Assembly: GCA_041736875.1 (NCBI GenBank)
Contig: JBGSSV010000111.1
Span: 31 to 64,030 of the forward strand
Length of the DNA: 64,000 bases
Reading direction: 5' to 3'
From: Chthoniobacterales bacterium
Lineage (GTDB): Bacteria > Verrucomicrobiota > Verrucomicrobiia > Chthoniobacterales > JACTMZ01
The translations under genes were made by a program, and so were the position numbers. Within the stretch, counting starts at the first letter, position 1; each line of letters opens with the position of its first letter. Below the pieces are notes generated by a model that saw only the letters and a list, made by a program, of their open reading frames with translations, was not told the origin of the DNA and searched no databases. Shown piece after piece: positions 11,497 through 31,248 of this stretch.

Positions 11497-13130
<1,634 letters not shown>

Positions 13131-14699: not shown

Positions 14700-15599
14700 A
14701 TGAGAGCAACCCGCGCACTTGCCTGGTTTCTGGCCGGCGTGCTCCTGGCGCTGTGGGTCGGTCAATCCCGGGCGGCAGACCATCAGCACGGTCCCACCGG
14801 CACGTATACCGAATGGCATTGGCCGGAGCCGCCGCCTGACGGGGGCTACGAAGGTTTCGAGCATCGGCTGGTCATTGAGCGTGAGCCGCCGGGGGACGTC
14901 GGATATTTCTGGTCGCATCAAGTCGAATTGCAGGATGGCGACACGGCGTATTTCGGCCTGCAGACCCTCGGGAGACGGCCCGATGGCAGCGAGGGGAAGG
15001 TGGCGATCTTCTCGATTTGGAAAGCTCTCGCTGCCCGCGGCCCCGGCGTCGCCCAGCCGTTCTCCGGGGAAGGGGAGGGATATCAAACCTTGATCCCCTA
15101 CGATTGGAAGCCGGGGCAGGGGTATCGCCTGCGCATGTTTTGGAGCGGGGAGAACCGCCGCGGAACGGAATGGTCGGCCACCGTCTGCGATGAAACCACG
15201 GGCGAAGTCTCGCTCATCGGGACCATCACGGTGCCGAAGAAATGGGGAGGCTTGGGGGCGTGGTCGGTCATGTGGTCCGAGCGCTACACCGGGCCCGAAG
15301 TTCGGACTTGTGATGATGTCGGCTATTCCCGCGTGACCTTCACGGCACCCACGGCGGATGGCGGCAGCGTCAGGCCCGACCGCCACCATAGTTACGTCAC
15401 CGCCCCCGCGAATTGCCCTAGCTCCCGGGTGATCGAGCAGGGCGGCCGCTTCCGTCAGGAGATGGGTATCCCCGAGCAGACGTGCAGAAGGCCGCGGTCG
15501 GCGGTTCAGGGGGTTGGTGTGATCGTGGCAAATGGAGAGCGGCCGAAACCGGACTCATCGGGTTTGGTCGTCGGAATGGTCTGGGTGAACCAAGTGTGA
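14700..15599 (+). CDS. secreted protein, DUF3472-like
   Basis: Signal peptide MRATRALAWFLAGVLLALWVGQSRA. Contains YFGLQTLGRRPDG...VAIFSIWKA...FSGEGEGYQ...YDWKPGQGYRLRMFW. The last ~31 codons overlap the convergent gene, so the true 3' end is questionable. Confidence 0.5.
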   Translation: MRATRALAWFLAGVLLALWVGQSRAADHQHGPTGTYTEWHWPEPPPDGGYEGFEHRLVIEREPPGDVGYFWSHQVELQDGDTAYFGLQTLGRRPDGSEGKVAIFSIWKALAARGPGVAQPFSGEGEGYQTLIPYDWKPGQGYRLRMFWSGENRRGTEWSATVCDETTGEVSLIGTITVPKKWGGLGAWSVMWSERYTGPEVRTCDDVGYSRVTFTAPTADGGSVRPDRHHSYVTAPANCPSSRVIEQGGRFRQEMGIPEQTCRRPRSAVQGVGVIVANGERPKPDSSGLVVGMVWVNQV

Positions 15600-17437
15600 G
15601 CGTAGGAATGGGCGTCCAAGAGACTGCCCCCCGGCGGCGGCGTGATGTATTTGAGATGGATGCCCTCCGGTGGAGATTCCTCAGTCAGTCCAACGACAAA
15701 AGGCGAGGTGATGTAAAAATCCATGCTGCTGCAAGCCTTCGGCACGTCCACGGTCAGTTCCTGATCCGGCGCCGGCGTGTCCAAAATGGTCACGTGCATG
15801 TTGGCCGGCGCCATATTCATCATTTTCAAACGCAACGCCGCACGAGACACCACAAATCCTCCCGCGCTATGTCCGATCAAGTGCAGGGGCTTGGCCGGAT
15901 CGATCTGCTTATCCCAGATCATCTGAGCGATCCGGAAGGCCAAGAGATCCCCGACCTCCCTGGCCTGACTCGGAATGCCCGCCAGATCCGCGAGAAACTT
16001 TCCCACCTCATTCCCCGGATCAATCCCGTGCATCCTTCCGGGCATCGCCGCGGCGGACCAGTCCACCAGGCCGATGTTCGGCGCCGCAGAGCCCAGTCGT
16101 TCCAGCAGAACCTTGCGCATCTCCCGCATCCAGGGACTGTCAAGGCCCTCCCCGGTCTGGATCGCACCGTCATGCAAACCGTGGGCGATGATGATCGTCC
16201 CATTCGGAACGAGGTCCGGGTCTGGTATCCAGGGACCGCCTGTTTCATCCACCAGCGCCCCTTGCGCCTGCAGCTTGCTCCGTGCCTCGGGATCACTCGG
16301 GGCACTGAAAGAAAGCCAACCCAGCGTCCCGGCCGAAGCTGCGATGACAAAAGGCAGGCGCCCCAGCAACACCCGCCCCAAAAAGATCAAACCCACCCCG
16401 CCTAGCGCCAACGCCTCGCTCGTCACATTTGGACCTCCACCCACGGCCCGATGCTTGTGGCTCGCCTTGGCCTTGTCTTCGCGCACCTGATAGAATTGCT
16501 CGGCCGTTTCAGCTTCAAAATACCAGTCCACCACCTCACCCAAGAGTTGGTCCTCCGTCGCAGACACGATCGGCAGCGCTTCCTCGGGCGTCACCTTGGC
16601 CAGCAACTCGCTCCGCGCGTTTTCCAGCATCGAGATCTGCCTCGCGAAGCGCGCCGTGCGTCGGTTGAGCTCCTGCATATAGCGCAGCGATTGAAGCAGC
16701 ACGATGCCCAGCGGCAGCACAACTCCCGCGACACCGAGGAAAGCCTCGATCCGATAATCCCCCAGCATCCGCATCCATTGCGGCGCCCGACTGCTCATGG
16801 TCAGGATCACCCCGGCTGCCCCGAGGGCCAGCATCACATCCATCAGCACCGTGGCCCATTTCGTGAAATGCTTCCGGCTCTCTTCCGCGCTCTGCTTCGC
16901 CTTTCGGTAATAGGCCAACTGATCATCCAACCGATTCTTGATCCAAGTTTCCCTCCACTGCGGCCAGGCTTGTTCGTGGGCTTCATCGTGCGTTTCAATG
17001 ATGGGCTTCAGGTCAGGGATCGCCGCCAACACCCGGCGCGCGGGCAGCACGGGAAAGATCGCCGCCGTCATCTGACTTCGCGCCACCTCGGCGACCAAAC
17101 GCGCCCGTGCCCAGGTCCGCTGCATCCCCCGCCAGCGCATCCACCACAAAGCCCCGATCAAGCACAGCACGGCCGCCAGCGTCCCAAGGGCCGCCGCCGC
17201 AGGCGGCAAGCCCAGAGATCGCCGAATGAGCCAAAGGGTGGGCATCATCACCGCCAGCGCTTGAATCAGAGTCATCCAGCGCGACCATGAGCGCGCCATC
17301 GGTGCCGCCCTGAGGGCCAGCCCATCCATACGTTGCTGGATCACATCAAGGGAATCCCCCGCCGTGACCCCGGCGGCTGATTTCAGATCGGCCAGCCAAC
17401 CTGGCGCCGACGTTTCGGGGGTGGCTTTAGCTTCCAT
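15506..17437 (-). CDS. SLATT-like (DUF4231-type) transmembrane module fused to a lipase-type alpha/beta hydrolase
   Basis: Reads RLDDQLAYYRKAKQSAEESRKHFTKWATVLMDVMLALGAAGVIL...IEAFLGVAGVVLPLGIVLLQSLRYMQELNRRTARFARQISMLE: a helix, two TM helices, then a helix, as in SLATT/DUF4231. The C-terminus reads IIIAHGLHDG...LHLIGHSAGGFV (GxSxG elbow). Confidence 0.6.
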   Translation of the reverse strand: MEAKATPETSAPGWLADLKSAAGVTAGDSLDVIQQRMDGLALRAAPMARSWSRWMTLIQALAVMMPTLWLIRRSLGLPPAAAALGTLAAVLCLIGALWWMRWRGMQRTWARARLVAEVARSQMTAAIFPVLPARRVLAAIPDLKPIIETHDEAHEQAWPQWRETWIKNRLDDQLAYYRKAKQSAEESRKHFTKWATVLMDVMLALGAAGVILTMSSRAPQWMRMLGDYRIEAFLGVAGVVLPLGIVLLQSLRYMQELNRRTARFARQISMLENARSELLAKVTPEEALPIVSATEDQLLGEVVDWYFEAETAEQFYQVREDKAKASHKHRAVGGGPNVTSEALALGGVGLIFLGRVLLGRLPFVIAASAGTLGWLSFSAPSDPEARSKLQAQGALVDETGGPWIPDPDLVPNGTIIIAHGLHDGAIQTGEGLDSPWMREMRKVLLERLGSAAPNIGLVDWSAAAMPGRMHGIDPGNEVGKFLADLAGIPSQAREVGDLLAFRIAQMIWDKQIDPAKPLHLIGHSAGGFVVSRAALRLKMMNMAPANMHVTILDTPAPDQELTVDVPKACSSMDFYITSPFVVGLTEESPPEGIHLKYITPPPGGSLLDAHSYAHTWFTQTIPTTKPDESGFGRSPFATITPTP

Positions 17438-17650
17438 GATCGAATGAGATTGAGTGCGAGGCGCTGAGATTGACGCTGACCACTAGGCTGTCCGTCAGCA
17501 ACCGGCAACAGCCAAACGTCGTGCATTCAGGAACCCCCGTTGGTCACGGGCCACGGGGATCACTCACTTGAAGGGTGCCGGCACAAATGGCCGCCTTTGC
17601 CCCTCGTCCGCGACTTTGCGGTGCCGCGGGTTTCTGTCTTGGCCTCGGGA

Positions 17651-17773
17651 CTAGCAGCCCTCCGGCTCGTTGGCGTAGCTTTGCTGATACCCGCCGCCAG
17701 TGGTCTCGCAACCGGTGAGGCAGCAGATGGAAAGGATACCGACAACGACGAGGATGCTTTTGATGATGGTCAT
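17651..17773 (-). CDS. 40-aa micro-lipoprotein
   Basis: MTIIKSILVVVGILSICCLTGC|ETTGGGYQQSYANEPEGC is a signal peptide plus LTGC lipobox. ATG is M82 of ORF 17651..18016. It is short, so it remains hypothetical. Confidence 0.35.
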   Translation of the reverse strand: MTIIKSILVVVGILSICCLTGCETTGGGYQQSYANEPEGC

Positions 17774-17891
17774 GGCGTCGAGACCAATAGCCGCGGTAAC
17801 CGGTCTTTGACTAGCCAAATAGGTTCCAATTTTTTCTGCGCTCCGCCGGGACCCTGCGGTGGAGAGAACTCGGCTCGGGGTAACACAGAGG

Positions 17892-19577
17892 TCAGGCCAG
17901 GAAGTCGCCCACATGCAGGACCACGGAGCGGTCGTAGTCTTTGGTTGGCTCGTCGAGGAGGTCGTAGGCGACGAGGTTCGGGTGCTGTTTGGCGGCGTCG
18001 TTCCGCTGGGGGGCAAAGGTCCAATCGGTCATCCAATAGTAGGCCGCCCACCGTTTGTGTTCCATGCGCGAGAGACGCTCGACTTGCACGGGGCTGAGGC
18101 TGTCCCACTGGGCCTTCGTGATCGTCCCCGGATCCCACCCGGCGGCGCGAACTTTGAAGGGAATGTGATCCGCTTGGGAGCGGCTGGCCCCTTTTTGCTC
18201 CTCGCTCAAGTCCTCCCACGGGCGGAATGTGGCTTTGCCCTCGAGGTTCCGGGCGAGAGCTTCATTCCCGGCGGCGCGGGCCTCGGCGATTTGCGCATGG
18301 GTCTCGCGGATCCATTTTTCGTGAATCGTTCGCGCCGTCCGGTCGAGCGACTCGCCGATGACCGCTTCGTAGCCGCAGACATCTCCCGGCTGCGGGAGAA
18401 AACCGATGCAGTCCTTGAGCCGGCGATGGCGGGCGACCATCGAGCGAAGCGGTGAGTCGGACGGGGCAGTGATGAGGATCCGCAAGTTTGAGCGATCCGA
18501 TGTCTGCTCGAGGAGTTCTAGCGTGCGGGAGTAACCGCTGTTTCCTTCAGCCAGAGCAGGGAAGATGTTGAAACGGCCCGGGGTGGAAGCCAGAAGATCC
18601 GTCACTTGGCGGGAGAAGTGCTCCTCGTCCACCAGGTCCACCGCGTCGAGGTCCATGCACTGGGTGATGCCGGGGAACTGTCTCATGAGCATGGCCAAAT
18701 CGCGCGAAGCACTGGGGCCGACGAGGTGGAGGTGGACTCGCCGATCATCGGTGAAATGCCCGAGCAAGGCGTATTCAAAAGCCAGGGCCCGCCCGAGACT
18801 GCAGAGACCGGGCAGCACAACATGGACTTCGCCTTCGTCGGACTCGGGGGCAAAGTCGCGGATGGTTTGCCGCGCGATGTTGCGCGCCTCGCTGAAAACC
18901 CTTACCGGGCCTCCGCTGGTCGCCGGGGCGTCCTGCGCCCGGTGCCGCCAATACAAATCGCACAGCGAAGCCCTGTTGCCGTGGGCGTGCACCGAGGGCA
19001 CTCCGAGTTCCACGGCGGCCATGCTGATGATCAAGTTGTGCTCGTCGTCCGAGGTGGTCACAGCCACCTGCGCGGCTTTGGCGGCGCCGGCTTGGGCCAG
19101 CACACTCGCTTTCGTGGCGTCGCCGCAGACGACCAGAAAACCTTCGGCCTCGAGAACTTCGGCCCGGTCGGGGTCGCTTTCGATCAGCACAACCTGCCGC
19201 CCGCGTTCTTCCAAGTCCTTGGCAAGCACGGTTCCCTTGCGGCCAGCCCCGCAGATTACGGTGTGCCCGGTCAGGCGGCGGGCGCGAAAGTGGTTCCACT
19301 GACGTTGGAACAAGGCCACGCCCACGCGGAAAATGGCACCGAGCATGGTGAGCGGGGCCAACCATCTCGCCACCTCCAAGGTCCACGGCAGAGGGGCTTC
19401 AGCCGTGGTATTCCATGGAAAATAGTTCCAATAGAAGAGCTGGACCGCCCGATAGGCTGCGACCGGAAGTCCTCCCGCGTCGTTGAAGGATAAAAAGCCC
19501 CACGTGCCGAGCACGAGGGAGACCACGGCGGAAACGAGGAGGATGGCTCCGAAGTGGCTGCGAATCCTCCACCACAT
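17892..19577 (-). CDS. 2-TM protein with TrkA-N/RCK NAD-binding domain and two C-terminal RyR-type repeats
   Basis: N-terminal helices are present but there is no K+ selectivity filter (AAYRAVQLFYWNY...). The Rossmann region reads VICGAGRKGTVLAKDLEERGRQVVLIESD. RyR-like repeats: IHEKWIRE...FRPWEDLSEEQKGASRSQADHI and MEHKRWAAYYWMTDWTFAPQRNDAAKQHPNLVAYDLLDEPTKDYDRSVV. Confidence 0.65.
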   Translation of the reverse strand: MWWRIRSHFGAILLVSAVVSLVLGTWGFLSFNDAGGLPVAAYRAVQLFYWNYFPWNTTAEAPLPWTLEVARWLAPLTMLGAIFRVGVALFQRQWNHFRARRLTGHTVICGAGRKGTVLAKDLEERGRQVVLIESDPDRAEVLEAEGFLVVCGDATKASVLAQAGAAKAAQVAVTTSDDEHNLIISMAAVELGVPSVHAHGNRASLCDLYWRHRAQDAPATSGGPVRVFSEARNIARQTIRDFAPESDEGEVHVVLPGLCSLGRALAFEYALLGHFTDDRRVHLHLVGPSASRDLAMLMRQFPGITQCMDLDAVDLVDEEHFSRQVTDLLASTPGRFNIFPALAEGNSGYSRTLELLEQTSDRSNLRILITAPSDSPLRSMVARHRRLKDCIGFLPQPGDVCGYEAVIGESLDRTARTIHEKWIRETHAQIAEARAAGNEALARNLEGKATFRPWEDLSEEQKGASRSQADHIPFKVRAAGWDPGTITKAQWDSLSPVQVERLSRMEHKRWAAYYWMTDWTFAPQRNDAAKQHPNLVAYDLLDEPTKDYDRSVVLHVGDFLA

Positions 19578-19582
19578 GCCGG

Positions 19583-22333
19583 TTACTCCGACCTTTTGAA
19601 GAGGTCGGCCGTTTCCGCCGCCTCCTCCGCGACACGTTTGGCGGCCGCGGCAAAGCCGGGGTCAGCCGGATCCACGACGTCCTCCGTCTCATCCTCGGTG
19701 CGGATCCATCCGACCAATTGATCGTTCATGAAATTGAAAATATTCGTCACCTTACCGGTCTTCTTCTCCGTGGCCTGGCCCTCGCGCACCTGGAAAACCG
19801 AACGGAGGCTTCCCTTGGGGGTCCAATAATAAAAGGTGAATGTGCCGTCGGCCTCGCCCGTGGAGTCCACCAGCATGACGCGCATCAGGCTTTTCCCATC
19901 GAACCACCCGAGAGCATAATGTTCGCGGGAGCCGCCGTGTTCGGGAAGCTCCCGCCGGGCCTCCTGCCAGGCGCCGTCATCGGACTTGGCCTTCCAATCC
20001 TCACGCAGCGTCGCAAAGCTCTCCGCTTCCAAAACAACTTCCGCCAGCTTGGGCAGGAGGGCTTCGATGCTCGCGCGTTTGGCATCGTCCTCGGGCATGG
20101 CTTCCGCGGCAATCTCCGCCGCGGTGCGGGCATAAGCCACAGCCTCCGCCGCGCGGTTGTCGGCCCACAGATTGAGGGCTAGGGCTTGGTTGGCCGCCGC
20201 CAGCTCCGCCTTCGCCCCGGGTTGCTCGGTTTCCAGCAGGGTGATGTTCCGGCGCTGGAGCGCCTCGGCCTCCTTTCGGTCATCGAGGGCCCCATAAATG
20301 CCGGCCAGCAGGCCGCGGGCTTCGATCGTTTGAAGGTCACCCGCGCCGAGTTTGGCCTCCCGGATCTTGAGGCAGCGGTCGGCCAGGCCCCGGGCCGTTT
20401 CGTTGTCGTCGGCGAGGAGAAGCCGACTGGCCTCGATGAAGAGATTCACCGCATAGCCGGTATCATCCGCTCCCACCGCCTTCCCCTGTTCTTCCAAACG
20501 TCTAAGCACAAGCTTCTTGGCTCCCTCGGTATCGCCTCTCGCCTCCAGCAGTTCGCCGAGTCTTTCGAAGCTGTCGAGCGTGTCAGGCTGGGCCGCGCCG
20601 ATGGTGCGGATGCGGGTCTCGAGGACTTTCCGGGTGAGGATTTCGGCCTCGTCCAGATTCTCCGGCGACTTACTCCGGGTCAGCAGTCCGGCCAGGATCG
20701 TGGCCTGGGCCAAGGTGGGCGGCGCATCCGGGCCGACCGCGCGCTCCGAGGAGGCGAACGCCCGGCGCGCCAGAGCGATCGCCCCCGGATAGTCGTCCTG
20801 ATCCTCCCGCACGAAGGCCAGCATGATCACCGGATTCAAAGTCTCCTCGTGATCCGGTCCGAGCGATTTTTCGCGGGCGGCCAACACCTTGCGGTAAACT
20901 TCCTCCGCCTGGGGGAATTTTTTCTGGGAGTTGAGCGCATAAGCCAGATCCAGCATGGCGGACAGCGTCTCCGGGGCCTCCGGGCCGGATTTTTTTTCGT
21001 TGGCCTCCACCACGCCGCGGAAAAGTTTGAGCGATTCCTCTTGTTCGGCTTCCTCACCACTTATGAGGCTGCGGGCCAGCGCGAGCGTTGCCTCCAAGGT
21101 GGCCGGATCATCCGGTCCGAGTTCGCTCTCCTGCACTTCGAGGACGGAACGGTTCAGCTCGCGGCCCTCCTCGGGGGGAACAACCTTCGCGAGACTGGTC
21201 ATGAGGGCGAGCGTGGCCGGGTTCTTCGGGCCAAGCGCGGCATTGCCTTTGGCCCAATCCACGGCCTCGGAGAGTATTCTCCTGGGTTCCGTGCTCATCA
21301 CATCGCGGTCATACATGGCCATGGCCAGCGCGTTGGTGGCGGCGGCCCAAGCGGCCGGATCCTCCGTGCGGTCGAGCAGGGTGAGGCGCTCGGCTTGGGC
21401 GGTGATGGCCTCGTTGACCAGACCCGCAGCCAGTTGAGCCTCGGCCAAACGCTGGAGGGCGTCGGCGAGGTTGCGCTTCCCGCCGGCCCCTGTGCTGGCC
21501 CGCGCCGCAGCCACGGCCTGCTCGGCTTGGACGATGGCCTCCCGCACGGTGTTGCGGACTTCTTCGACGGATTGGTTGCTGGCCTGCGCCACATTTTGCT
21601 CCGCCTGCAGGGCGATTTGCTGCATGTCGCCTGCTCCGGCCTTGCGCAAGCGGGCCTGCTCGGCGAGCAGTTGTTCAATCAAGGCTCCCTGACGCGCGAG
21701 TTGATCGTTGGTCGCGGCAATGACCTTGGCTTGCTCGCCCTGGCGGCCGAGCAGGAAAATTCCGCCGCCGATGGCAATAACCGCCGCGGCCACGGCGACG
21801 ATGAGCGTGAGGCGCCGACGCCCGCGTTCCTTGGCCAGTTCCTCGCGCAGGTTCTCGACCGAGAGCTGGAGCTCGCGCGTGCGGGTCGAAAGTTCCTCGG
21901 GTGTGGCAAATTCGTAGAAAAGCTCGTCGCGTTGCAGGAGGCGGGCGCGGTGGTCGAGTTGGAGTTGCTGCTTGTCCTCCGGCTCGGGATCGTGCTTGTC
22001 GAAAGGGAAATCCTTGCCGCAAAGAAAGACATAGCACGGGAGCTTCAACTCCATCGCGATCTCGTATTCCATCTGCGTGAAACTCCGGCGGTCCGGCCCC
22101 GGGATCACCGGCTGAGGCTCGGCCCCGTAATAGAAGCCCGCGAGATGCACGACGGCGTCGCACGTCAGGATTTTCGTCCGCAGCATGTCGCGCACGGATT
22201 TGTAGTCGGGCGGGAAATCGTCCTGCACGATCGGCAGGCACTCCATCCGCCTGAGCCCCTCGGAAACCAGCCCCCGGGCGGTGCGAAGGTCGCGACTCGT
22301 GGCGCTGACGAAAATGCGTGGGACGGGTTGCAT
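19583..22333 (-). CDS. DUF4062 (TIR/N-deoxyribosyltransferase-like) - TM - coiled coil - TPR protein with unknown C-terminal domain
   Basis: Reads MQPVPRIFVSATSRDLRTARGLVSEGLRRMECLPIVQDDF...CDAVVHLAGFYYGAEP...SFTQMEYEIAMELKLPCYVFLC, which matches the DUF4062 pattern. TM helix is LTLIVAVAAAVIAIGGGIFLLG. There are many TPR_12-like units (LGPDHEETL, LGPDDPATL, SGPEAPETL, VGPDAPPTL). ATG 22333; the ORF-track start at 22369 is TTG. Confidence 0.65.
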   Translation of the reverse strand: MQPVPRIFVSATSRDLRTARGLVSEGLRRMECLPIVQDDFPPDYKSVRDMLRTKILTCDAVVHLAGFYYGAEPQPVIPGPDRRSFTQMEYEIAMELKLPCYVFLCGKDFPFDKHDPEPEDKQQLQLDHRARLLQRDELFYEFATPEELSTRTRELQLSVENLREELAKERGRRRLTLIVAVAAAVIAIGGGIFLLGRQGEQAKVIAATNDQLARQGALIEQLLAEQARLRKAGAGDMQQIALQAEQNVAQASNQSVEEVRNTVREAIVQAEQAVAAARASTGAGGKRNLADALQRLAEAQLAAGLVNEAITAQAERLTLLDRTEDPAAWAAATNALAMAMYDRDVMSTEPRRILSEAVDWAKGNAALGPKNPATLALMTSLAKVVPPEEGRELNRSVLEVQESELGPDDPATLEATLALARSLISGEEAEQEESLKLFRGVVEANEKKSGPEAPETLSAMLDLAYALNSQKKFPQAEEVYRKVLAAREKSLGPDHEETLNPVIMLAFVREDQDDYPGAIALARRAFASSERAVGPDAPPTLAQATILAGLLTRSKSPENLDEAEILTRKVLETRIRTIGAAQPDTLDSFERLGELLEARGDTEGAKKLVLRRLEEQGKAVGADDTGYAVNLFIEASRLLLADDNETARGLADRCLKIREAKLGAGDLQTIEARGLLAGIYGALDDRKEAEALQRRNITLLETEQPGAKAELAAANQALALNLWADNRAAEAVAYARTAAEIAAEAMPEDDAKRASIEALLPKLAEVVLEAESFATLREDWKAKSDDGAWQEARRELPEHGGSREHYALGWFDGKSLMRVMLVDSTGEADGTFTFYYWTPKGSLRSVFQVREGQATEKKTGKVTNIFNFMNDQLVGWIRTEDETEDVVDPADPGFAAAAKRVAEEAAETADLFKRSE

Positions 22334-22374
22334 GGGCGGAAATCCTAACGGAGCCCGGCTGGCTGGCAAGCTGG

Positions 22375-23298: not shown

Positions 23299-23987
23299 TG
23301 GTTTCGGGTGGTGAAGGCTTGAAGGTGCTCATTTTGGGCCGCGTCCTCGCTGCGCACCAGCGTGTGTTCCGTGCCGTGGAGAAGGAGAATATGCGTGGCG
23401 ATGCGCCGGGCGAAGTCCAGATCCTGCGTGGCCACAACAATCCCGGTCAGGACCCCGGTTCGGACGAGGGTGACCAGAAGTTCCTCCACCAGAGCCTTCT
23501 TCGCGGGCGCCAAGGCGGCCACGGGCTCGTCGGCGATCAGGAGCCGGGTCCGGCCGGAGAGGGCCCGGGCCAGGGAGACGCAACGCTTGTCACCTTCGCT
23601 CAACTGATGGACCTCCTCGTTTTCGAGGTGTCCGCAGCCGACCAAGCGCATGCGCAGCCGGACCTTTTCCTGCAACTCTCCATCCAGGTCCAACCCGTGG
23701 ACGAGGAAAGGCAGGGCGATGTTCTCGAAGACGGTCATGTTGCGGATCAAGCCGGGGTGCTGAAAGACGACGCCCACCTCGGCCAGGGCGAGGTTCAGCT
23801 CGCGTCCGGCCACGTGCACCGAGCCCGGTGGGACCCGCAGGTGTCCGCTCAGGTGCGCGAGCAGGAGACTTTTGCCGGAGCCGTTGTCGCCGAGCACGGC
23901 CAGAATTTCGCCGGGCTGGACTTGAAAGGCCAGAGGCTCCCCGCCGAGGGAGAGACCTTGGACCGAGAGCGGCGGTGCCGTCTTCAT
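23295..23987 (-). CDS. mlaF: ABC transporter ATP-binding protein, MlaF-like with atypical motifs
   Basis: Walker A GDNGSGKS and Walker B LLIADEP are present. The signature is LSEGD (not LSGGQ), the D-loop is AALA, and the H-loop position reads VVATQD (Gln, not His). The ATG overlaps the mlaE stop (ATGA). Confidence 0.8.
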   Translation of the reverse strand: MKTAPPLSVQGLSLGGEPLAFQVQPGEILAVLGDNGSGKSLLLAHLSGHLRVPPGSVHVAGRELNLALAEVGVVFQHPGLIRNMTVFENIALPFLVHGLDLDGELQEKVRLRMRLVGCGHLENEEVHQLSEGDKRCVSLARALSGRTRLLIADEPVAALAPAKKALVEELLVTLVRTGVLTGIVVATQDLDFARRIATHILLLHGTEHTLVRSEDAAQNEHLQAFTTRNH

Positions 23988-24769
23988 TCAAGACTGAAGG
24001 CTGCGGTGAGCAGGCTGAGCAGGAGGTTGACGATCGTGGAGGAAAACACCGCGGTGGCCACCGCTGACGTGGTGATCTTGCCGACAAAGCCGCTCTCCGC
24101 CTTGGCCCCCATGAAGCCGAAAAAACCGGCGATGATCGACATGGCCGTCGCGGTGATGGCCAGTTTGGTCACGGTGAGCAACAAGGCTCCCGAGGTCACG
24201 CTCGAGGCGTAGGCCGAAATGAATTCCGTGAAACTCGTCCCGACCGCGATCCATGAAACCAGCCAAGCCCCGAGGCAGGCGGCATACACGCCGATGACCG
24301 CCAGCGAGGGGGCTGTAATGATGAGCGCGATGGCCCGCGGGGCGAAGATCATGTCCGCCGGATTCAAGCCCACTGCCTCCAGCGCATCGACTTCCTGCGA
24401 CACCCTCATGCTCGCGATGTCCGAGGTCAGCCCGACCACACCCTTCAGGACCACGAGATTGGCGATGGCGAAGGGGATGACAAATTGGATGAAGGCGCCG
24501 CCGAGATGCGGCAGCACCAAAGTTTGAAAGGCCTCCGGGCTGCCGGCATTGCCGATCACGCCATAGGCCGCCGCGAGGCCGTAGATGAAGGTCGTCAGGG
24601 CCGACGCTCCCGCCGTGCCTCCGAGGAAACCCAGCACCTGCCGCACCGTTTCGCGATCCACGACGGTGGTGCGCCCCGTCAGGACCCGCGGAATCACGCG
24701 CAAGCCGACGATCAGGATGGCTCCGAGCAGGCTCGTGATCGAATAGCGGGTTGTCCGCTCAAACGTCAT
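23984..24769 (-). CDS. mlaE: MlaE/YrbE-family ABC permease
   Basis: About 261 aa from ATG 24769 (M90 of ORF 23984..25036; alternative M82 at 24793). Polytopic, with LTSDIASMRVSQEVDALEAVGLNPADMIFAPRAIALII. Confidence 0.75.
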   Translation of the reverse strand: MTFERTTRYSITSLLGAILIVGLRVIPRVLTGRTTVVDRETVRQVLGFLGGTAGASALTTFIYGLAAAYGVIGNAGSPEAFQTLVLPHLGGAFIQFVIPFAIANLVVLKGVVGLTSDIASMRVSQEVDALEAVGLNPADMIFAPRAIALIITAPSLAVIGVYAACLGAWLVSWIAVGTSFTEFISAYASSVTSGALLLTVTKLAITATAMSIIAGFFGFMGAKAESGFVGKITTSAVATAVFSSTIVNLLLSLLTAAFSLE

Positions 24770-24806
24770 TGCTGTTGTCGCTTTGGCAGCCATACATTGG
24801 CGGCAG
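24770..24806. promoter_or_regulatory. very short divergent intergenic region between the mla-led operon and the DUF4071/SLOG operon
   Basis: mlaE ATG is at 24769. Rightward start candidates are TTG 24783, ATG 24807 and ATG 24831. No promoter boxes were recognised. The regulatory role is inferred only from divergent geometry. Confidence 0.3.
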
Positions 24807-26666
24807 ATGACGCACGGAACCGCCGCCACTATGCAAGTCAAATCGGATCGAGCCTGCGACAGCATTGACGCCGTCGCCGTGGCCGTGGACGCCCTGCGGG
24901 GGCGCCTGCAGAGCGGGGAAAAAATACCGCCGCGCGAACTGCGCGGAATCTGGGGTGAGCGCCTCCGCCCGTTCTGGCGGCTGAAGATCGACATGTATCG
25001 CGCCTTGTCCCGCCGGTTGCTCGAGCAAGGCGACAACTACCTGGCGAGCGAAGTAGCCGACGAGGGCGGGCAATTCTTCGGTGACGATGTGGCGTTGATT
25101 TTGACCCGCGCCCTGGCGACGGCGCGGAGCGGGGCGCCGCAGAGTGCACAGGCCTTTCTGCGGCAGAAGGAGGAGTTGCTGGACGAGGCCGACGAGGCCA
25201 AAAGTTTGCTGGCCCGCACCTTCAAGGATCTTTGGAAATCCTCGCGCGAGGAGCATTACCTGCAGGAGTCGTTCGACCTCTATCACCTCGACTACACGAC
25301 GACCAGGGGCGACCGGACCTTTCCGGGTGTGAACGCTGCCAGCATGGCGCTGTTTCTCGGTCGCCGCGACCTTGCCGGGCGCATCGCCGGGGAGGTGCTG
25401 GCCCTCTTGCGCGCCAAAGCCGACACCGCGAACTACTGGGATGAAGTCACCATCGCGGAGTGCCTGCTCGTCGCCGGCGAGATCGAGGCGGCCCGCTCGG
25501 CTTATGCCGGAGCGGCCAGCCGCGATCACGTCGCCCACGCCCACCTCGCGACCACCCGCGGCCAGGCCCGGCTCCTGCTCAGGCAACTTGAACGCGGCGA
25601 ATCCGAGTTCGATCCGTGTTTCCCGCTGCCCGGCGTCATTGCCTTCACGGGACACCGCATCGATGGGCCAGACCGGGCTGCGCCCCGGTTGCCCCACGAT
25701 ATGACCCCGGCCATCAAAGAGCGCATTCGCGAGGCCATCGCGAAATCCGGAGCCGGCTTCGGTTACGCGGCCGCGGCCAATGGCTCGGACATTCTCTTCC
25801 TCGAATGCATGCAGGAGGCCGGCCTCGAGACCTACATCCACCTTCCCCTGCCCGAGGAGGACTTCATCCGTGAGAGCGTTCTGAATCCCGCATTTCCCGA
25901 GTGGTTGGAGCGCTTTCGAAAAGTCACCGCCCACGCCACCGAATACACTTGCGCGACGCACGCCGGCCACGAGGCGCTTGATTTCGACTACGGCAACCGC
26001 CTCATGCTCGGCGCGGCGAGCCAGCGCGCACGCCAACTGGGCTCCGAACTGCATTTTCTCACCGTTTGGGATGGTGTCCCCGCAGCGCTCGGGAGCGGGG
26101 GCACGGCGGATTACGTCCGCGTGGCCCGAGAATTCGGCTGCGCGGTCGAGATCATCGACATCCCCGGGCCGCGGCCCGGGCAGCCGGAGGAGCAAACCGC
26201 GCCCGCGGCGGGCCAGGGCCAACTCCTCTCCATCCTCACGATTTTCCTCCGGCCCGACGAGAAGTCCGAGGCCAGGCTGGCCGACTTGGCCAGTGACGCC
26301 ATTCACAGCGAGGTCTCCGACACCCGTGTGCGCATCTTCTTCCGAAACCAAGCAGCCGCAGCGATGGCTGCTTGCGGGATCCGCCGACATCTGGCCGACG
26401 TCCTCACGGGCGCGTTGGGATTGCACGCCGGACCCGCCCGTCTCTCTACGCACCCCCTGACGGGCAAACAGATCGTGCGCGGCGCCCATGTTACCGTCTC
26501 CGATGAGCTGGCCGCCCTCACTCCTGCCGGTCTCATCTACGCCTCATCCGCCTTCGCCGCGCTGCTCGGTTTGGAGAGTTCCGGCGATGCCCGGAGCGAG
26601 TTCCTTGGTTATCGCGCGTTGACCAGCGGCGGTCGGCGGGAGCCTGTCTTTCAAATCCTCGGCTGA
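24807..26666 (+). CDS. DUF4071 (TRAF-binding-domain-like) - SLOG/YpsA-like Rossmann - degenerate class III cyclase-homology protein
   Basis: DUF4071 pattern: LLARTFKDLWKSS...FPGVNAASMALFLG...NYWDEVTIAECLLVAGEIEAA. SLOG/YpsA-like region: VIAFTGHRIDGP...IKERIREAIAKSGAGFGYAAAANGSDILFLECMQEAGLETYIHLPLP. CHD-like tail: ILTIFLRPDEKSE...RIFFRNQAAAAMA...LGLHAGPARL, which lacks both metal-binding Asp. The start is uncertain (24783, 24807 or 24831). Confidence 0.6.
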   Translation: MTHGTAATMQVKSDRACDSIDAVAVAVDALRGRLQSGEKIPPRELRGIWGERLRPFWRLKIDMYRALSRRLLEQGDNYLASEVADEGGQFFGDDVALILTRALATARSGAPQSAQAFLRQKEELLDEADEAKSLLARTFKDLWKSSREEHYLQESFDLYHLDYTTTRGDRTFPGVNAASMALFLGRRDLAGRIAGEVLALLRAKADTANYWDEVTIAECLLVAGEIEAARSAYAGAASRDHVAHAHLATTRGQARLLLRQLERGESEFDPCFPLPGVIAFTGHRIDGPDRAAPRLPHDMTPAIKERIREAIAKSGAGFGYAAAANGSDILFLECMQEAGLETYIHLPLPEEDFIRESVLNPAFPEWLERFRKVTAHATEYTCATHAGHEALDFDYGNRLMLGAASQRARQLGSELHFLTVWDGVPAALGSGGTADYVRVAREFGCAVEIIDIPGPRPGQPEEQTAPAAGQGQLLSILTIFLRPDEKSEARLADLASDAIHSEVSDTRVRIFFRNQAAAAMAACGIRRHLADVLTGALGLHAGPARLSTHPLTGKQIVRGAHVTVSDELAALTPAGLIYASSAFAALLGLESSGDARSEFLGYRALTSGGRREPVFQILG

Positions 26667-26857
26667 CCGTTTGAGTGTCAGGAGCGGCCGGGGTCGGACG
26701 CTCTTTCCGCCGTGCCCGCCCGAGATCGGTCCGCCAAAAACAGGGGGGCATCGCACCGCGGGCAAGACGCAGAAATCCCCTTTTTGGCTCGTCTCGTCGG
26801 GGTGACTCTGCGCTACTGGCCGCCTTCGGCCTGCCGAATTCCCGGCCAACTCTGTTG

Positions 26858-29800: not shown

Positions 29801-31120
29801 GCGCAGCGCCTGCAAGAACAGATCGTCCGCCGATCGGCCGAAGAACTCAACGCCTTGGCGCTGCTCCTCGCCTCGGCCGCCGATCCCCGGTTGGGCGTTC
29901 CAGGATCGGCCGCCGCGGCGGGGCAGGCGGTCTCGGTGCTGCGCGAGATGAAGCGGGCCGGAGTCGGCTTGGAGGAGGATTACCGGGGGGAAATCGAGGC
30001 GGCCTTCGCCGGGCCGGCGTTCTCCGGTCGGGCGGAAGTCGCGGCGTTGCTCGCCGACGTGGCGGGACAGCCCACTCCTGCACCGGCGGCCGCAAATATC
30101 GTCGACGTGACCGACACCGGCACGCTCCGGCGGACGCTCAGGAAAGATTCGTTCATGCTCGTCAAGGGTGTCATCGCTTCGGCCAGGTGGACGGGCACGC
30201 GCCGGACGCTGCGCCTTCAATTTGAAGGGGTCAAACCCGACGAATTTTCGGCGTCGATCCCGGCGGACTTGCAGTTGGGTTTGGAGGCGAAGCTGGGGGG
30301 GAGCCTCGAGGAAGTTCTGCCGGGGCTGGGGGTGGAACTTGGCGGCCATATCTACGGATACGATGGGCCTCCGGTGCTCGTGGTCGGGTCCATCGACAAT
30401 TTCAAGCCCACGCATCGTGCGGAAGCGGTGCCGAAAGTGGAGGAACTCCGAGTCCTTCCGGCCACGGATATCCCTGCGCTTCGCGCCGCCATGGGCACCG
30501 AGGTGTCCGTCGAGGGGGACGTGGCCGATGTGATCCTCATGCGTTCGGGGCTGGCGACAACGATCCAACTCGACTCGGGGGGCGGTGAGACGCTGTTGGC
30601 CGTGGTTTTTGCCAGCGGTGCTCCCGCGATCGAGTCGAAGCTCGCTGGCCCCCTTCGTGAGCAACTCCTCGGTAAACGCATCCGCCTCAGGGGAACTCTG
30701 GAACCCTACGGCGGACGCAACCCGGCTTGGGCCGGGTTTCCGCAGATCGCCCTCGAGGACCCGGCCCAGCTGGAGCGGCTGAGCGACGCCGCGCTTCCGA
30801 ACCCTGCCGATGCGGAGGTCTTCCTGCGCAGGTCCGGCGCGCACGCGACCGTCGTGGCGACGGTTGGAGAGATGTCCCGCAGTCCCAGTGCCAAGGTGCT
30901 CAACATCCGCTTCAGCGAGGCGGGGCCGGACGGCTTGCGCGCCGCGGTCTTCCCCAGCAACGAGTCGGCCATCGCGAGCAAACTCGGCGGGAGCCTGGAG
31001 ACCATCCTTCCCGGTCGTCGGGTCCGGATCTCCGGAAAGGTCAGCACCTATGAAGGTCAGCCGCAGATCATTCTCTCCAACCCCTGGCAGATCGATCTGG
31101 CTGAAGCCGACGGCGGATAA
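26858..31120 (+). CDS. class III cyclase domain - Ser/Thr protein kinase - TM - helical-repeat region - three OB-like C-terminal modules
   Basis: CHD: VVIVFTDMVGSTDLK...ISTNGDSFLLAL...MAIHVGEVLVEE...GIQVDTCARVMS. Kinase: LGEGGFGEVWLARH...VFKF...IIHRDVKPSNILV...LTDFGIG...YMAPE. TM: AAVAVILLVAGLAFLA. About 850 aa lie distal to the TM. ATG 26858 (M62 of ORF 26675..31120). Confidence 0.8.
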   Translation: MNMPAIEGVSAQRLEDFHRRHRNALVVIVFTDMVGSTDLKQRLGDEAAVRLIAEHHALLREVLAGERDGEEISTNGDSFLLALSRPSSAVRFALRAQARMREFSRRCGETIRDRMAIHVGEVLVEEGSSDLQGIQVDTCARVMSLGGGDQILLTRFAFDNARQALRAGEFENLAELRWLSHGHYSLQGLEEPVEICEVGEEGLAVLQAPPDSAKARRAFQPGDEPVLGWRPAVAQAVPGTGWILKEKLGEGGFGEVWLARHAKLGKQQVFKFCFRADRARSLKRELTLFRILQERAGHHPNIVGINDVYLDEPPFYLGMDYVDGADLTVWCEQRGGALAVPLETRLDLIAQIADALQAAHDAGIIHRDVKPSNILVEEKAGARPHARLTDFGIGQVTSDDTLSGVTRLGFTMTMMSTEPTGAGGTQIYMAPELLAGRPASIRSDIYSLGVILYQLVIGDLHQPLTTDWRTRVPDPLLQEDLARCFAGDPEERFAGAAQLAEALRAIETRRTEAEARAREQAERERAAYRRGLLRATAAAVAVILLVAGLAFLARREGMRAEANYRSAQKVVDDLMLLTKGMAGEQASPADSRLMPQELADSAVQNYRDFLAQRPDDAALRLNLAKVCRSRALIYAANAGGDDEQRRIARESMDESLEILRSLLAAAPQDPAVREELANALGGVALDGRNNLGRDEEERGQAAAEALQVRRELAAGARDSFAIQLALADLLRDISQAAPEGESVSLVTEEVVTRGKALTVSPESRRFEALIALSLARERLADLSTEPDRARHLREAFEAVADSREPDHHRLPLVLRRLDLATLIAWEERLAGRVPAAAEWADRIEQELARLAGCEIDAAGLAEARRSEAEGLIELAQSKARLPPQEALGLLARAIKIEEGLGGSQSNSFDPESLDAAWDAWIRLAVAAGTPERALEAARSACTFWGAVWGEDPSRVAASWFRLANLQSELGRQEAAGESLAEAQRLQEQIVRRSAEELNALALLLASAADPRLGVPGSAAAAGQAVSVLREMKRAGVGLEEDYRGEIEAAFAGPAFSGRAEVAALLADVAGQPTPAPAAANIVDVTDTGTLRRTLRKDSFMLVKGVIASARWTGTRRTLRLQFEGVKPDEFSASIPADLQLGLEAKLGGSLEEVLPGLGVELGGHIYGYDGPPVLVVGSIDNFKPTHRAEAVPKVEELRVLPATDIPALRAAMGTEVSVEGDVADVILMRSGLATTIQLDSGGGETLLAVVFASGAPAIESKLAGPLREQLLGKRIRLRGTLEPYGGRNPAWAGFPQIALEDPAQLERLSDAALPNPADAEVFLRRSGAHATVVATVGEMSRSPSAKVLNIRFSEAGPDGLRAAVFPSNESAIASKLGGSLETILPGRRVRISGKVSTYEGQPQIILSNPWQIDLAEADGG

Positions 31121-31132
31121 CAACTGCCTCGG

Positions 31133-31191: not shown

Positions 31192-31248
31192 GGGACTGCT
31201 CGGCCCAAGGTCTTGGGGGTTCGCAGTGCAGGACCTACATCCAACGGG

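What the first reader, a model, noticed from the sequence alone, without database searches (positions are those of the whole stretch)
15506..31120. Candidate undescribed system: back-to-back operons combining SLOG, SLATT-like, TIR-like DUF4062, RyR, cyclase and kinase modules around an Mla transporter
Seen, leftward unit: mlaE-mlaF-mlaD joined by 4-nt overlaps. Then 41 nt to the DUF4062-TM-TPR gene, 5 nt to the 2TM-RCK-RyR gene, 118 nt to a 40-aa lipoprotein, and 213 nt to the SLATT-like/alpha-beta-hydrolase gene.

Seen, rightward unit: it starts at most about 60 nt from the mlaE ATG. It encodes the DUF4071-SLOG-like-degenerate-cyclase protein, then after 191 nt the cyclase-STK-TM-helical-3xOB protein. 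Both giant proteins share a layout of cytoplasmic signalling domain, single TM helix (positive residues on the N-terminal side), then a large helical-repeat ectodomain.

Established (family level):
- SLATT domains were named for their association with SLOG and SMODS modules in nucleotide-centred conflict systems (Burroughs, Aravind and co-workers).
- SLOG domains sense nucleotide-derived signals, for example ThsA in Thoeris.
- TIR-type and N-deoxyribosyltransferase-like domains generate or process such signals.
- Class III cyclases make cNMPs.
- By my recollection DUF4062 belongs to the TIR/N-deoxyribosyltransferase-like assemblage.

Inference: these genes form one envelope-linked nucleotide second-messenger system. 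Sensors would be the periplasmic TPR/OB ectodomains and Mla. Signal producers would be the cyclase and DUF4062 domains. The receiver would be SLOG. Effectors would be the SLATT-lipase and the RCK-RyR membrane protein. I cannot match this composition to any named defence or signalling system. No integrase, tRNA or flanking repeat marks it as mobile.
Basis: partly seen in the sequence, partly recalled or inferred. Interest (0 to 1): 0.85.

Follow-up and report, generated by a model that had tools for sequence, protein, structure and literature searches.

The report
Membrane-anchored NAD-signalling gene cassette
A soil Verrucomicrobium carries a conserved cassette that joins a membrane-anchored TIR-like NADase to three proteins whose domains bind ADP-ribose-type nucleotides and to a divergent Mla-like lipid transporter. 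It looks like an undescribed, envelope-linked relative of the Thoeris antiviral signalling systems.

Summary
In detail: all gene coordinates, spacings and almost all domain calls were reproduced.

- **Conserved unit.** In 13 of 13 related Chthoniobacterales lineages, mlaE-mlaF-mlaD-like genes sit back to back with the TPR-S/SLOG/dead-cyclase gene.
- **Usual partners.** DUF4062-TM-TPR is present in 10 of 13 lineages, and a TIR gene replaces it in 2. RCK-RyR is present in 8 of 13.
- **SLATT-hydrolase gene.** It is present only in the closest strains. Elsewhere in Verrucomicrobia its family lies next to TPR-S, TIR/DUF4062 or RyR genes, so it belongs to the same network.
- **Cyclase-kinase gene.** The 1420-aa gene is a strain-specific 5.85-kb insertion and is not part of the system.

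Papers from 2025-26 tie the domains together:
- DUF4062 ('NIR') is a TIR-like NADase.
- RyR domains bind or cleave cyclic ADP-ribose (cADPR) signals.
- SLOG, SLATT and TPR-containing proteins are Thoeris effectors.

Best reading: a Thoeris-like NAD-derived signalling system with a receptor-like sensor-enzyme that has an outside-facing repeat domain, and with membrane effectors. The role of the Mla-like module is unexplained. I rate it a new variant of a known kind. Nothing has been tested experimentally.

The parts
15506..17437 (-). 643-aa polytopic membrane protein with a SLATT_1-like region (about residues 166-305) and a C-terminal alpha/beta-hydrolase (GHSAG nucleophile elbow). It is an accessory member of the cassette.
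   Evidence: Pfam: Thioesterase 1.6e-5 and SLATT_1 0.0074 over the full model. Family level: SLATT_1 in 10 of 24 members (best 4e-6) and hydrolase in 21 of 24. Four hydrophobic segments. Present in L085 and L091 only among type-C loci. Elsewhere the family sits next to TPR-S, TIR/DUF4062, RyR or nSTAND1 genes.
17651..17773 (-). 40-aa predicted lipoprotein (MTIIKSILVVVGILSICCLTGC...).
   Evidence: ORF and lipobox read directly. A 40-aa gene is called at the same place in the 91%-identical relative. Function unknown.
17892..19577 (-). 561-aa protein with 2 TM helices, an RCK/KTN Rossmann domain (GAGRKG) and a C-terminal RyR (Repeat12-type) domain. No K+ selectivity motif is present.
   Evidence: TrkA_N 7e-24 and RyR 2e-14. 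PDB RyR1 R12 1.4e-18 and B. thetaiotaomicron 3nrt 2e-8. TM segments. His, Trp(+3), His(+25) and Asp(+42) have the spacing of the RyDEP ligand residues H75, W78, H100 and D117. Present in 8 of 13 type-C lineages.
19583..22333 (-). 916-aa protein: N-terminal DUF4062/NIR TIR-like domain (cytoplasmic), a single TM helix (residues 177-195), then about 700 aa of TPR repeats and a C-terminal beta-rich domain (predicted extracytoplasmic).
   Evidence: DUF4062 1.7e-12 and TPR_12 5e-27. KpSwz structure 10wc 2.9e-5. The catalytic Glu is conserved as E89, after correcting for the E97A mutant in the PDB entry. TM. Of the best 150 representatives, 122 share the SxTQxE motif, and 113 of the 136 that are at least 260 aa have a TM helix at residues 120-260.
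22375..23298 (-). 307-aa MlaD-like protein: N-terminal TM anchor, a beta-rich region, then a long coiled coil.
   Evidence: No Pfam MlaD hit. TIGR04430 E 0.003 at residues 12-72. PDB MCE proteins E about 0.5 at the same residues. Its position after mlaE-mlaF is conserved.
23295..23987 (-). 230-aa MlaF-like ABC ATPase with non-canonical motifs (signature LSEGD, D-loop Ala, H-loop His to Gln).
   Evidence: ABC_tran 6e-28. The alignment with three orthologues and with E. coli MlaF (sequence recalled from memory) shows the substitutions are conserved.
23984..24769 (-). 261-aa MlaE-like permease (5 hydrophobic segments).
   Evidence: Pfam MlaE 3.5e-26. NCBIfam MlaE models score far below their cut-offs (64.6 against 212 bits). 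Start codon read.
24770..24806 (.). Very short divergent intergenic region (37 nt, or 61 nt with the next ATG) between mlaE and the TPR-S gene.
   Evidence: Sequence read directly. The back-to-back arrangement is kept in all 13 lineages. No promoter was mapped.
24807..26666 (+). About 620-aa soluble protein: TPR-S/DUF4071-type helical repeat, a SLOG-fold domain (about residues 280-460) and a catalytically dead class III cyclase-homology domain.
   Evidence: TPR-S 1.2e-10. AlphaFold2 model pLDDT 89.8. The isolated middle domain matches YpsA 2nx2 at 6e-7, then DprA, ShosA, TM1055 and LOG. The C-terminal domain matches CHD 3mr7 at 9e-12, but the FADxxGFS and WGD Asp residues and the RAAR Arg are lost in this clade.

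Best explanation
The cassette is a membrane-centred signalling system that uses an NAD+-derived nucleotide, built on the same logic as Thoeris (a TIR enzyme plus ligand-gated effectors).

Proposed steps (all inferred):
1. The DUF4062-TM-TPR protein acts as a receptor-enzyme. Its large TPR region, predicted to face the periplasm, senses an envelope-side cue such as phage attack or envelope damage.
2. This activates the cytoplasmic TIR-like DUF4062/NIR domain, probably by oligomerisation.
3. That domain cleaves NAD+ to ADP-ribose or a derivative.
4. The product is read by the TPR-S/SLOG protein and by the RyR domain of the 2TM-RCK-RyR protein. The RCK Rossmann domain could also read NAD(H).
5. 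Output is at the membrane, through the RCK-RyR protein and, in strains that have it, the SLATT-hydrolase. Both are read as ligand-gated membrane-disrupting or ion-conducting effectors.
6. The always co-inherited Mla-like ABC/MCE complex, whose ATPase has a degenerate H-loop, is either the envelope sensor or a lipid-trafficking effector controlled by the TPR-S/SLOG/pseudo-cyclase protein.

Shown here: domain identities, conserved catalytic and ligand-binding residues, membrane topology predictions, and conserved or shuffled gene linkage.
Inferred: every biochemical step, the trigger, and a defence role.
For: (1) Linkage. MlaEFD-like genes and the TPR-S/SLOG gene are divergent neighbours in 13 of 13 lineages whose flanking genes differ. 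DUF4062-TM-TPR occurs in 10, TIR in 2 and RCK-RyR in 8. The MlaD-like subfamily (about 40 clusters) lies on the same contigs as the TPR-S orthologues.

(2) The same partnership recurs in other forms.
- Of 80 species-level loci that encode TPR-S/SLOG/cyclase relatives, 40 have DUF4062 or TIR within 10 kb, 32 have a fused or adjacent RyR domain, and 16 have an nSTAND1 NTPase.
- The SLATT-hydrolase family lies next to TPR-S, TIR-TM-TPR, DUF4062, RCK-RyR, an RyR-4TM protein, or nSTAND1.

(3) Domain tests.
- The SLOG fold is confirmed.
- DUF4062 matches KpSwz and keeps the catalytic Glu, E89.
- The RyR domain keeps the H/W/H/D ligand residues.
- The RCK domain has GxGxxG.

(4) Established biochemistry of the families.
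- DUF4062/NIR hydrolyses NAD+ to ADPR (bioRxiv 10.64898/2026.05.01.722283; 10.64898/2026.09.04.749371).
- RyR-domain proteins bind or cleave 2'/3'cADPR (PMC13232231).
- SLOG binds 3'cADPR in ThsA. The SLATT protein ThsH and the TPR-containing ThsI are cADPR-dependent Thoeris effectors (bioRxiv 10.64898/2025.12.03.692087).

(5) Accessory behaviour.
- Components are gained, lost or swapped between close relatives.
- An AIPR abortive-infection gene is inserted into the cassette in one relative.
- The orthologue family is small (34 clusters above 50% identity).
Against: - There are no experimental data of any kind.
- NIR domains have so far been shown only to make linear ADPR and to deplete NAD+, not to signal.
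- The cyclase domain fused to SLOG is dead in this clade, so the output of that protein is unknown.
- The window's flanks are housekeeping genes (RF-1, enolase, GreA-like). GC content is uniform, and there is no integrase or tRNA, so this is not an obvious defence island.
- PADLOC finds nothing.
- A periplasmic location for KLC/NPHP3-type TPRs is unusual, and the topology rests on a hydrophobicity scan plus the positive-inside rule.
- MlaD identity is unproven, and no known defence system uses an Mla-type transporter.
- The SLATT-hydrolase is absent from 10 of 13 type-C lineages.
- Operon structure is unverified (118- and 213-nt gaps).
Confidence: 0.55

Rival explanations
1. A stand-alone NIR defence protein plus unrelated neighbours. 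DUF4062-TM-TPR would be a single-protein sensor-effector, like Vulcan or Swarozyc, that simply depletes NAD+. The SLOG, RyR, SLATT and Mla genes would be separate functions that happen to lie nearby.
For: All NIR systems characterised so far act by NAD+ depletion and need no receiver. Sensor repeats fused to NIR are the usual single-gene architecture. Gene content next to the cassette varies.
Against: Across three phyla and several gene orders, TIR/DUF4062 genes recur with proteins that carry known ADPR/cADPR-binding domains (SLOG, RyR, TPR-S, SLATT). RyR is fused directly to the TPR-S/SLOG/cyclase protein in many lineages. The DUF4062 and RCK-RyR genes are 5 nt apart.
Confidence: 0.2
2. A housekeeping envelope-lipid homeostasis module. 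This would be a specialised Mla-type lipid transporter of Chthoniobacterales, with activity tuned to cellular NAD(H)/ADPR status by the TPR-S/SLOG, RCK-RyR and DUF4062 proteins. No role in conflict with phages is implied.
For: The Mla-like genes are the invariant partner of the TPR-S gene (13 of 13). The start codons are 37-61 nt apart, which suggests co-regulation. The locus sits among core genes. The enzymatic domains show regulatory-type degeneration: a dead cyclase and an ATPase whose H-loop His is replaced by Gln.
Against: The Mla-like proteins are highly divergent and form a very small family. About 40 clusters were found, with no broader MlaD relatives retrieved, which is unlike a housekeeping pathway. 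Only 6 close orthologue loci appeared in a one-genome-per-species scan, although that scan was truncated. The partner domains are the hallmark families of immune systems, and nSTAND1/TIR contexts dominate elsewhere.
Confidence: 0.2
3. Chance juxtaposition: these are independent genes with no functional relation.
For: Intergenic gaps of 118 and 213 nt. No transcript data. The cyclase-STK gene does prove to be an unrelated insertion.
Against: The core order is conserved in 13 lineages that have unrelated flanks. The same domain families also recombine in other orders and as fusions.
Confidence: 0.05

Closest known systems
Thoeris type VII (TIR + SLATT effector ThsH, signal cADPR) and type VIII (TIR + ThsI with a TPR domain predicted by Aravind's group to sense TIR products); bioRxiv 10.64898/2025.12.03.692087
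   Same: A TIR-superfamily enzyme lies next to a SLATT membrane protein and next to a protein with a sensor-type TPR. The logic is an NAD+-derived signal plus a ligand-gated effector.
   Different: The enzyme is DUF4062/NIR, not a canonical TIR. It is anchored by a TM helix to a large, presumably extracytoplasmic, TPR region. The SLATT domain is fused to an alpha/beta hydrolase. The TPR-S protein carries SLOG and a dead cyclase rather than a CMP-hydrolase-type domain. There are several candidate receivers plus an ABC/MCE module, instead of a two-gene operon.
Thoeris type I (ThsB TIR + ThsA SIR2-SLOG)
   Same: A SLOG-fold domain is partnered with a TIR-type NAD+-cleaving enzyme.
   Different: The SLOG domain here is fused to TPR-S and a pseudo-cyclase, not to SIR2. 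It matches no Pfam SLOG family, and its closest structure is YpsA.
NIR/DUF4062 defence systems: Swarozyc, Vulcan, Vesta, Evangelion, Avs2-NIR (2026 preprints)
   Same: An N-terminal DUF4062 domain with a conserved catalytic Glu is followed by a repeat or auxiliary sensor region in one polypeptide.
   Different: Those proteins are soluble and deplete NAD+. The main texts of those preprints contain no mention of a TM helix, SLOG or RyR. Here a single TM helix separates enzyme and repeats, within a clade with an SxTQxE motif: 113 of the 136 top representatives that are at least 260 aa have a TM helix in that position.
Phage RyDEP RyR-domain proteins (PMC13232231)
   Same: The same Pfam family (PF02026), with the ligand-contacting His/Trp/His/Asp residues conserved.
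   Different: Here the protein is host-encoded and fused to 2 TM helices and an RCK domain (or, in relatives, to the TPR-S/SLOG/cyclase protein or to 4 TM helices). That suggests a receptor or effector role rather than an anti-defence sponge or glycosidase.
Mla (MlaFEDCB) outer-membrane lipid-asymmetry ABC system / MCE transporters
   Same: MlaE-family permease, ABC ATPase and a TM-anchored third gene, in the E-F-D order with 4-nt overlaps.
   Different: No MlaC or MlaB gene lies in the cassette. The MlaD-like protein matches no MlaD/MCE profile significantly. The ATPase has LSEGD and His-to-Gln H-loop substitutions. The family is restricted to the lineages that carry the TPR-S orthologue.

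Membership tests
Thoeris-type TIR signalling defence systems | A TIR-domain protein that converts NAD+ into a signalling nucleotide | tested here: inconclusive
   A TIR-like DUF4062 domain is present with its catalytic Glu. It is not a canonical TIR, and product formation cannot be tested here. Two sister lineages have a canonical TIR gene instead.
Thoeris-type TIR signalling defence systems | An adjacent effector with a domain that binds the ADPR-derived signal (SLOG, Macro, SLATT and others) | tested here: met
   SLOG fold, RyR domain and SLATT_1-like domain, all encoded in the cassette.
Thoeris-type TIR signalling defence systems | Protection against phage that depends on the TIR catalytic Glu | not testable with these tools
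   Needs phage challenge experiments.
NIR/DUF4062 NADase family | Match to PF13271 and to a solved NIR structure | tested here: met
   Pfam 1.7e-12. KpSwz 10wc 2.9e-5 with the single sequence and 6.5e-43 with a profile. The profile included the KpSwz fragment itself, so the second value is inflated.
NIR/DUF4062 NADase family | Conserved catalytic glutamate (KpSwz E97) | tested here: met
   The PDB chain is the E97A mutant. Numbering was checked against R18 and D71. The aligned residue is E89 in SFTQMEY. My first reading, Gln at this site, was wrong and was corrected.
NIR/DUF4062 NADase family | Enrichment in defence islands | tested here: inconclusive
   The window's flanks are housekeeping genes. 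One orthologous locus has an AIPR gene inserted. Relatives in other phyla sit with nSTAND1/TIR genes.
SLOG superfamily | Rossmannoid SLOG fold with glycine-rich nucleotide loops | tested here: met
   Domain model pLDDT 90.4. Foldseek top hits are YpsA 6e-7, DprA, ShosA, TM1055, LOG and Moco-carrier protein. Motifs GxxGxD and GGT are conserved. No Pfam SLOG family matched.
SLATT (PF18181 SLATT_1) membrane effectors | Profile match over the 2TM-plus-helices module | tested here: inconclusive
   The window protein scores E 0.0074, below the gathering score but over the full model length. NCBIfam gives 7e-4. Ten of 24 family members match, best 4.3e-6. No structure was predicted.
Class III nucleotide cyclases | Cyclase-homology fold | tested here: met
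   Family-profile match to PDB 3mr7 at 9e-12. Foldseek matches Cya2, Rv1900c and CyaB.
Class III nucleotide cyclases | Two metal-binding Asp residues and the transition-state Asn/Arg | tested here: not met
   In the alignment, the first Asp motif is deleted, the second Asp is Thr, and the Arg is lost in the window clade. All are present in 30%-identical relatives. The 627-aa protein is therefore a pseudo-cyclase.
Mla/MCE ABC transporters | MlaE-family permease and ABC ATPase | tested here: met
   PF02405 3.5e-26 and PF00005 6e-28, but both are far below NCBIfam equivalog cut-offs. The ATPase H-loop and signature motif are non-canonical.
Mla/MCE ABC transporters | MCE-domain substrate-binding subunit (MlaD) | tested here: inconclusive
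   No PF02470 hit. TIGR04430 E 0.003, and PDB MlaD/MCE E about 0.5 over residues 12-72 only. No structure model was made.
RyR (Repeat12) ADPR-signal-binding domains | PF02026 match with the ligand residues His, Trp, His and Asp | tested here: met
   Pfam 1.9e-14. PDB RyR1 R12 1.4e-18. EHKRW...KQHP...KDYD has the same spacing as RyDEP H75, W78, H100 and D117. The spacing was read by eye, because no RyDEP sequence was available to align.
RCK/KTN-gated K+ channels | K+ selectivity filter in the TM domain | tested here: not met
   The two TM helices (residues 5-23 and 72-90) have no TVGYG-like motif. The RCK domain itself is clear (TrkA_N 7e-24).

The most novel reading that the evidence does not exclude
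The cassette would be a bacterial transmembrane innate-immune pathway with Toll-like-receptor topology: an outside-facing repeat sensor, one TM helix and a cytoplasmic TIR-like enzyme. The enzyme's ADP-ribose-type product would gate a host RyR-domain membrane protein. That would be a prokaryotic counterpart of cADPR-to-ryanodine-receptor signalling. A degenerate Mla-like lipid transporter would be recruited as an envelope sensor or effector. It would also be the first NIR domain that signals rather than depleting NAD+.
Probability: 0.18. Interest if true: 0.9.

Novelty: new variant of a known kind. Interest (0 to 1): 0.66.

Why it matters
If this reading is right, four consequences follow.
1. 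NIR/DUF4062 domains, described only in 2026 as NAD+-depleting effectors, would gain a signalling role. One of those preprints only speculated about this.
2. Cellular, non-phage bacterial RyR domains would gain a function as receivers of TIR-type signals. That bears on the long-debated link between cADPR and ryanodine receptors.
3. It would reveal a large clade of membrane-anchored TIR-like receptor-enzymes that could sense threats outside the cytoplasm. Among the best 150 representatives (one per 50%-identity cluster), 113 of the 136 that are at least 260 aa have the TM helix.
4. It would connect a lipid ABC/MCE transporter to nucleotide immune signalling, for which I know of no precedent.

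All of these points are directly testable with a handful of recombinant domains and one heterologous expression construct.

Tried and rejected
1. I first concluded that the DUF4062 catalytic Glu is replaced by Gln. This was wrong. The PDB KpSwz sequence is the E97A mutant, and after re-registering the numbering the catalytic residue is E89 and is conserved.
2. Foldseek with the full-length TPR-S protein was dominated by OGT-type TPR-plus-Rossmann hits and cyclases, and said nothing about SLOG. Modelling the domain alone resolved this.
3. PADLOC gave only generic kinase and ABC hits.
4. The MlaD-like profile against the PDB gave coiled-coil noise and only marginal MCE hits.
5. I could not obtain the papers that define SLOG/SLATT and TPR-S (Burroughs et al. 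2015 NAR; Burroughs and Aravind 2020 J Bacteriol). 'TPR-S' is absent from the two Kaur et al. eLife papers. The claim that TPR-S was predicted as a TIR-signal sensor rests on the citation in the Sorek-lab preprint.
6. One literature search for 'SLATT' returned only slatted-floor papers.
7. A self-BLAST of the kinase protein's C-terminus found no repeats, so '3xOB' is unverified.
8. A context look-up for a distant DUF4062-TM representative hit a 4-kb contig with no neighbours.
9. The promoter and terminator scans were near background and were not used.

Full report
**What is in the sequence**

The closest relatives place the organism in Verrucomicrobiota, Chthoniobacterales/Terrimicrobiaceae.

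Profile searches reproduce the domain calls:
- TrkA_N and RyR in the 561-aa 2TM protein.
- DUF4062 and TPR_12/TPR_10 in the 916-aa protein.
- MlaE and ABC_tran.
- TPR-S (PF20308) in the 627-aa protein.
- Guanylate_cyc and Pkinase in the 1420-aa protein.
- A Thioesterase/alpha-beta-hydrolase match plus a sub-threshold, full-length SLATT_1 match (E 0.007) in the 643-aa protein.

The third transporter gene has no Pfam MlaD hit. It gives only marginal similarity to MlaD/MCE over residues 12-72. PADLOC recognises no system, only generic kinase and ABC similarities. Single TM helices follow the DUF4062 domain (residues 177-195) and the kinase.

**Domain-level tests**

*The 627-aa protein.*
- It was modelled with 67 homologues and reached pLDDT 89.8.
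- Its middle domain, modelled alone (pLDDT 90.4), matches SLOG-superfamily structures best: YpsA 2nx2 (E 6e-7), then DprA, ShosA, TM1055, LOG and Moco-carrier protein.
- Its C-terminal domain is a class III cyclase-homology domain at the family-profile level (3mr7, 9e-12).
- In this clade that domain has lost the first metal-Asp motif, the second Asp and the transition-state Arg. Relatives at 30% identity keep all of them. It is therefore a pseudo-cyclase.
- More distant relatives carry DUF4071/PF13281 and PF00211 annotations, and the family profile weakly matches the ASK1 TPR region.

*The DUF4062 domain.*
- It matches the solved KpSwz NIR structure.
- I first read the catalytic Glu as replaced by Gln. 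The deposited KpSwz chain is in fact the E97A mutant.
- With numbering anchored on R18 and D71, residue 97 aligns with E89 of the window protein (SFTQMEY). This Glu is kept in all related Verrucomicrobial proteins.

*The RyR domain.*
- It matches RyR1/RyR3 Repeat12 and the B. thetaiotaomicron protein.
- It keeps His, Trp(+3), His(+25) and Asp(+42), the spacing of the RyDEP ligand and catalytic residues.

*SLATT_1.* The match is found in 10 of 24 members of the 643-aa protein's family, best E 4e-6.

**Which genes belong together**

I compared 13 distinct related lineages: the window, L085/86, L091, L087, L005, L003/4, L009, L007/L169, L168, L010, C. flavus L001/2/6, L008 and L167.

| Component | Lineages with it (of 13) |
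|---|---|
| mlaE-mlaF-mlaD-like block, divergent from the TPR-S/SLOG gene | 13 |
| DUF4062-TM-TPR gene after mlaD | 10 |
| Canonical TIR gene nearby instead of DUF4062 | 2 |
| RCK-RyR | 8 |
| SLATT-hydrolase and the 40-aa lipoprotein | 3 (the closest strains only) |

- The flanking genes differ between lineages.
- The MlaD-like subfamily has only about 40 clusters, all at least 43% identical. The Mla-like module is therefore coextensive with the TPR-S orthologue and is unlikely to be a generic housekeeping Mla.
- Its ATPase carries conserved LSEGD, D-loop Ala and H-loop Gln substitutions.

The 1420-aa cyclase-kinase gene is not part of the unit. A 90%-identical relative is collinear up to the TPR-S stop codon and again from the Band_7 gene. 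The window has 5,851 nt between those points, carrying the cyclase-kinase and an aldo-keto reductase, where the relative has 338 nt. No other orthologous locus has the gene.

**The wider network**

A one-genome-per-species scan found over 500 loci that encode TPR-S/SLOG/cyclase relatives. Of the best 80:
- 40 have a DUF4062 or TIR gene within 10 kb.
- 32 have an RyR domain, usually fused to the N-terminus of the TPR-S/SLOG/cyclase protein.
- 16 have an nSTAND1 NTPase.

Two recurrent layouts stand out:
- In Acidobacteriota and one Gemmatimonadales MAG: nSTAND1-TPR, then a TIR+DUF4062 protein, divergent from RyR-TPR-S-SLOG-cyclase.
- In a Verrucomicrobial paralogue group: DUF4062-TM-X, divergent from ECF sigma, GAF, S8 peptidase, CobW and TPR-S-SLOG-cyclase.

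An independent anchor gives the same picture. The SLATT-hydrolase family lies directly next to:
- TPR-S and TIR-TM-TPR (L089).
- DUF4062 (L088, L105).
- RCK-RyR (L090).
- An RyR-4TM protein (L096).
- TIR-TM-WD40 (L104).
- nSTAND1 (L092, L093).

The SLATT-hydrolase is thus a genuine, though optional, member of the same network.

A full-library HMMER search with the first 200 residues of the DUF4062 protein found 3,222 representatives. Among the best 150:
- 122 share the SxTQxE motif.
- 113 of the 136 that are at least 260 aa have a TM helix at residues 120-260.

This indicates a large clade of membrane-anchored NIR proteins with variable C-terminal regions.

**What is known about these families**
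- DUF4062 was shown in 2026 to be a TIR-like NADase ('NIR') that makes ADPR and nicotinamide in Swarozyc, Avs2-NIR, Vulcan, Vesta and Evangelion. The main texts of those preprints contain no mention of TM-anchored forms, SLOG or RyR partners. One speculates that some NIR domains may signal.
- RyR-domain proteins of phages bind or hydrolyse 2'/3'cADPR.
- SLOG binds 3'cADPR in ThsA.
- Thoeris type VII uses a SLATT effector and type VIII uses a TPR-containing effector. Both respond to cADPR.

**Interpretation**

Every cytoplasmic domain in the conserved set either makes or binds NAD+-derived nucleotides. The genes are linked across lineages by conserved order, by shuffled neighbourhoods and by fusion. 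I therefore read the cassette as a Thoeris-like NAD-derived signalling system.

Its sensor-enzyme is a receptor-like membrane protein, and its outputs are membrane proteins. An unexplained but obligatory Mla-like ABC/MCE module accompanies them.

Two rivals remain plausible (about 0.2 each):
- A stand-alone NAD+-depleting NIR protein with unrelated neighbours.
- A housekeeping lipid-homeostasis module regulated by NAD status.

Chance juxtaposition is contradicted for the core genes.

**Verdict**

This is a new variant of a known kind. No biochemical step, trigger or phenotype has been shown.

Noticed in passing
window 26667-32517: A 5,851-nt segment carries the 1420-aa cyclase-Ser/Thr-kinase-TM protein (26858-31120, +) and an aldo-keto reductase-like ORF (31249-32283, -). 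Relative to a 90%-identical relative, which has 338 nt here, it is an insertion. It begins exactly after the TPR-S stop codon. No flanking repeats were looked for.
   Followed up: partly
window 23295-23987 and orthologues (L001, L003, L087): The MlaF-like ATPase has a conserved non-canonical signature (LSEGD), a D-loop Ala and an H-loop His-to-Gln change. These suggest ATP binding with little hydrolysis.
   Followed up: partly
L009 5383-7314: An AIPR (abortive-infection) family gene is inserted between the DUF4062-TPR and mlaD-like genes of an orthologous cassette.
   Followed up: no
L018, L019, L026, L052, L057, L059, L070, L082, L084 (about 5000-12000 in each): A recurrent three-gene layout in Acidobacteriota and one Gemmatimonadales MAG: nSTAND1-TPR NTPase (about 900-1500 aa), a 500-aa TIR_2+DUF4062 protein, and a divergent RyR-TPR-S-SLOG-cyclase protein whose cyclase motifs are intact. 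It looks like a separate candidate defence system.
   Followed up: partly
L017, L036, L064, L067, L068, L074 (about 4000-12000 in each): A Verrucomicrobial paralogue neighbourhood. Where present, a DUF4062-TM protein (about 600 aa) is divergent from ECF sigma, GAF, subtilase, CobW-like GTPase and TPR-S-SLOG-cyclase. A 1,080-aa TPR protein and a CHASE2-cyclase often lie downstream.
   Followed up: partly
L096 11956-13443; L089 10000-12447; L104 4712-7951: Next to SLATT-hydrolase homologues lie an RyR domain fused to four TM helices, a TIR-TM-TPR protein and a TIR-TM-WD40 protein. The last two share the 'cytoplasmic TIR, TM, repeat ectodomain' topology of the window's DUF4062 protein.
   Followed up: partly
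window 19583-20050 (C-terminal about 150 aa of the DUF4062-TM-TPR protein): A beta-rich C-terminal domain follows the TPRs and has no family match. L010 keeps it at lower identity.
   Followed up: no
L167 8719-9183: In one orthologous locus the ABC ATPase gene is called as only 154 aa, and no DUF4062 or TIR gene is annotated within 10 kb. This may be a decaying copy of the cassette or an assembly error.
   Followed up: no
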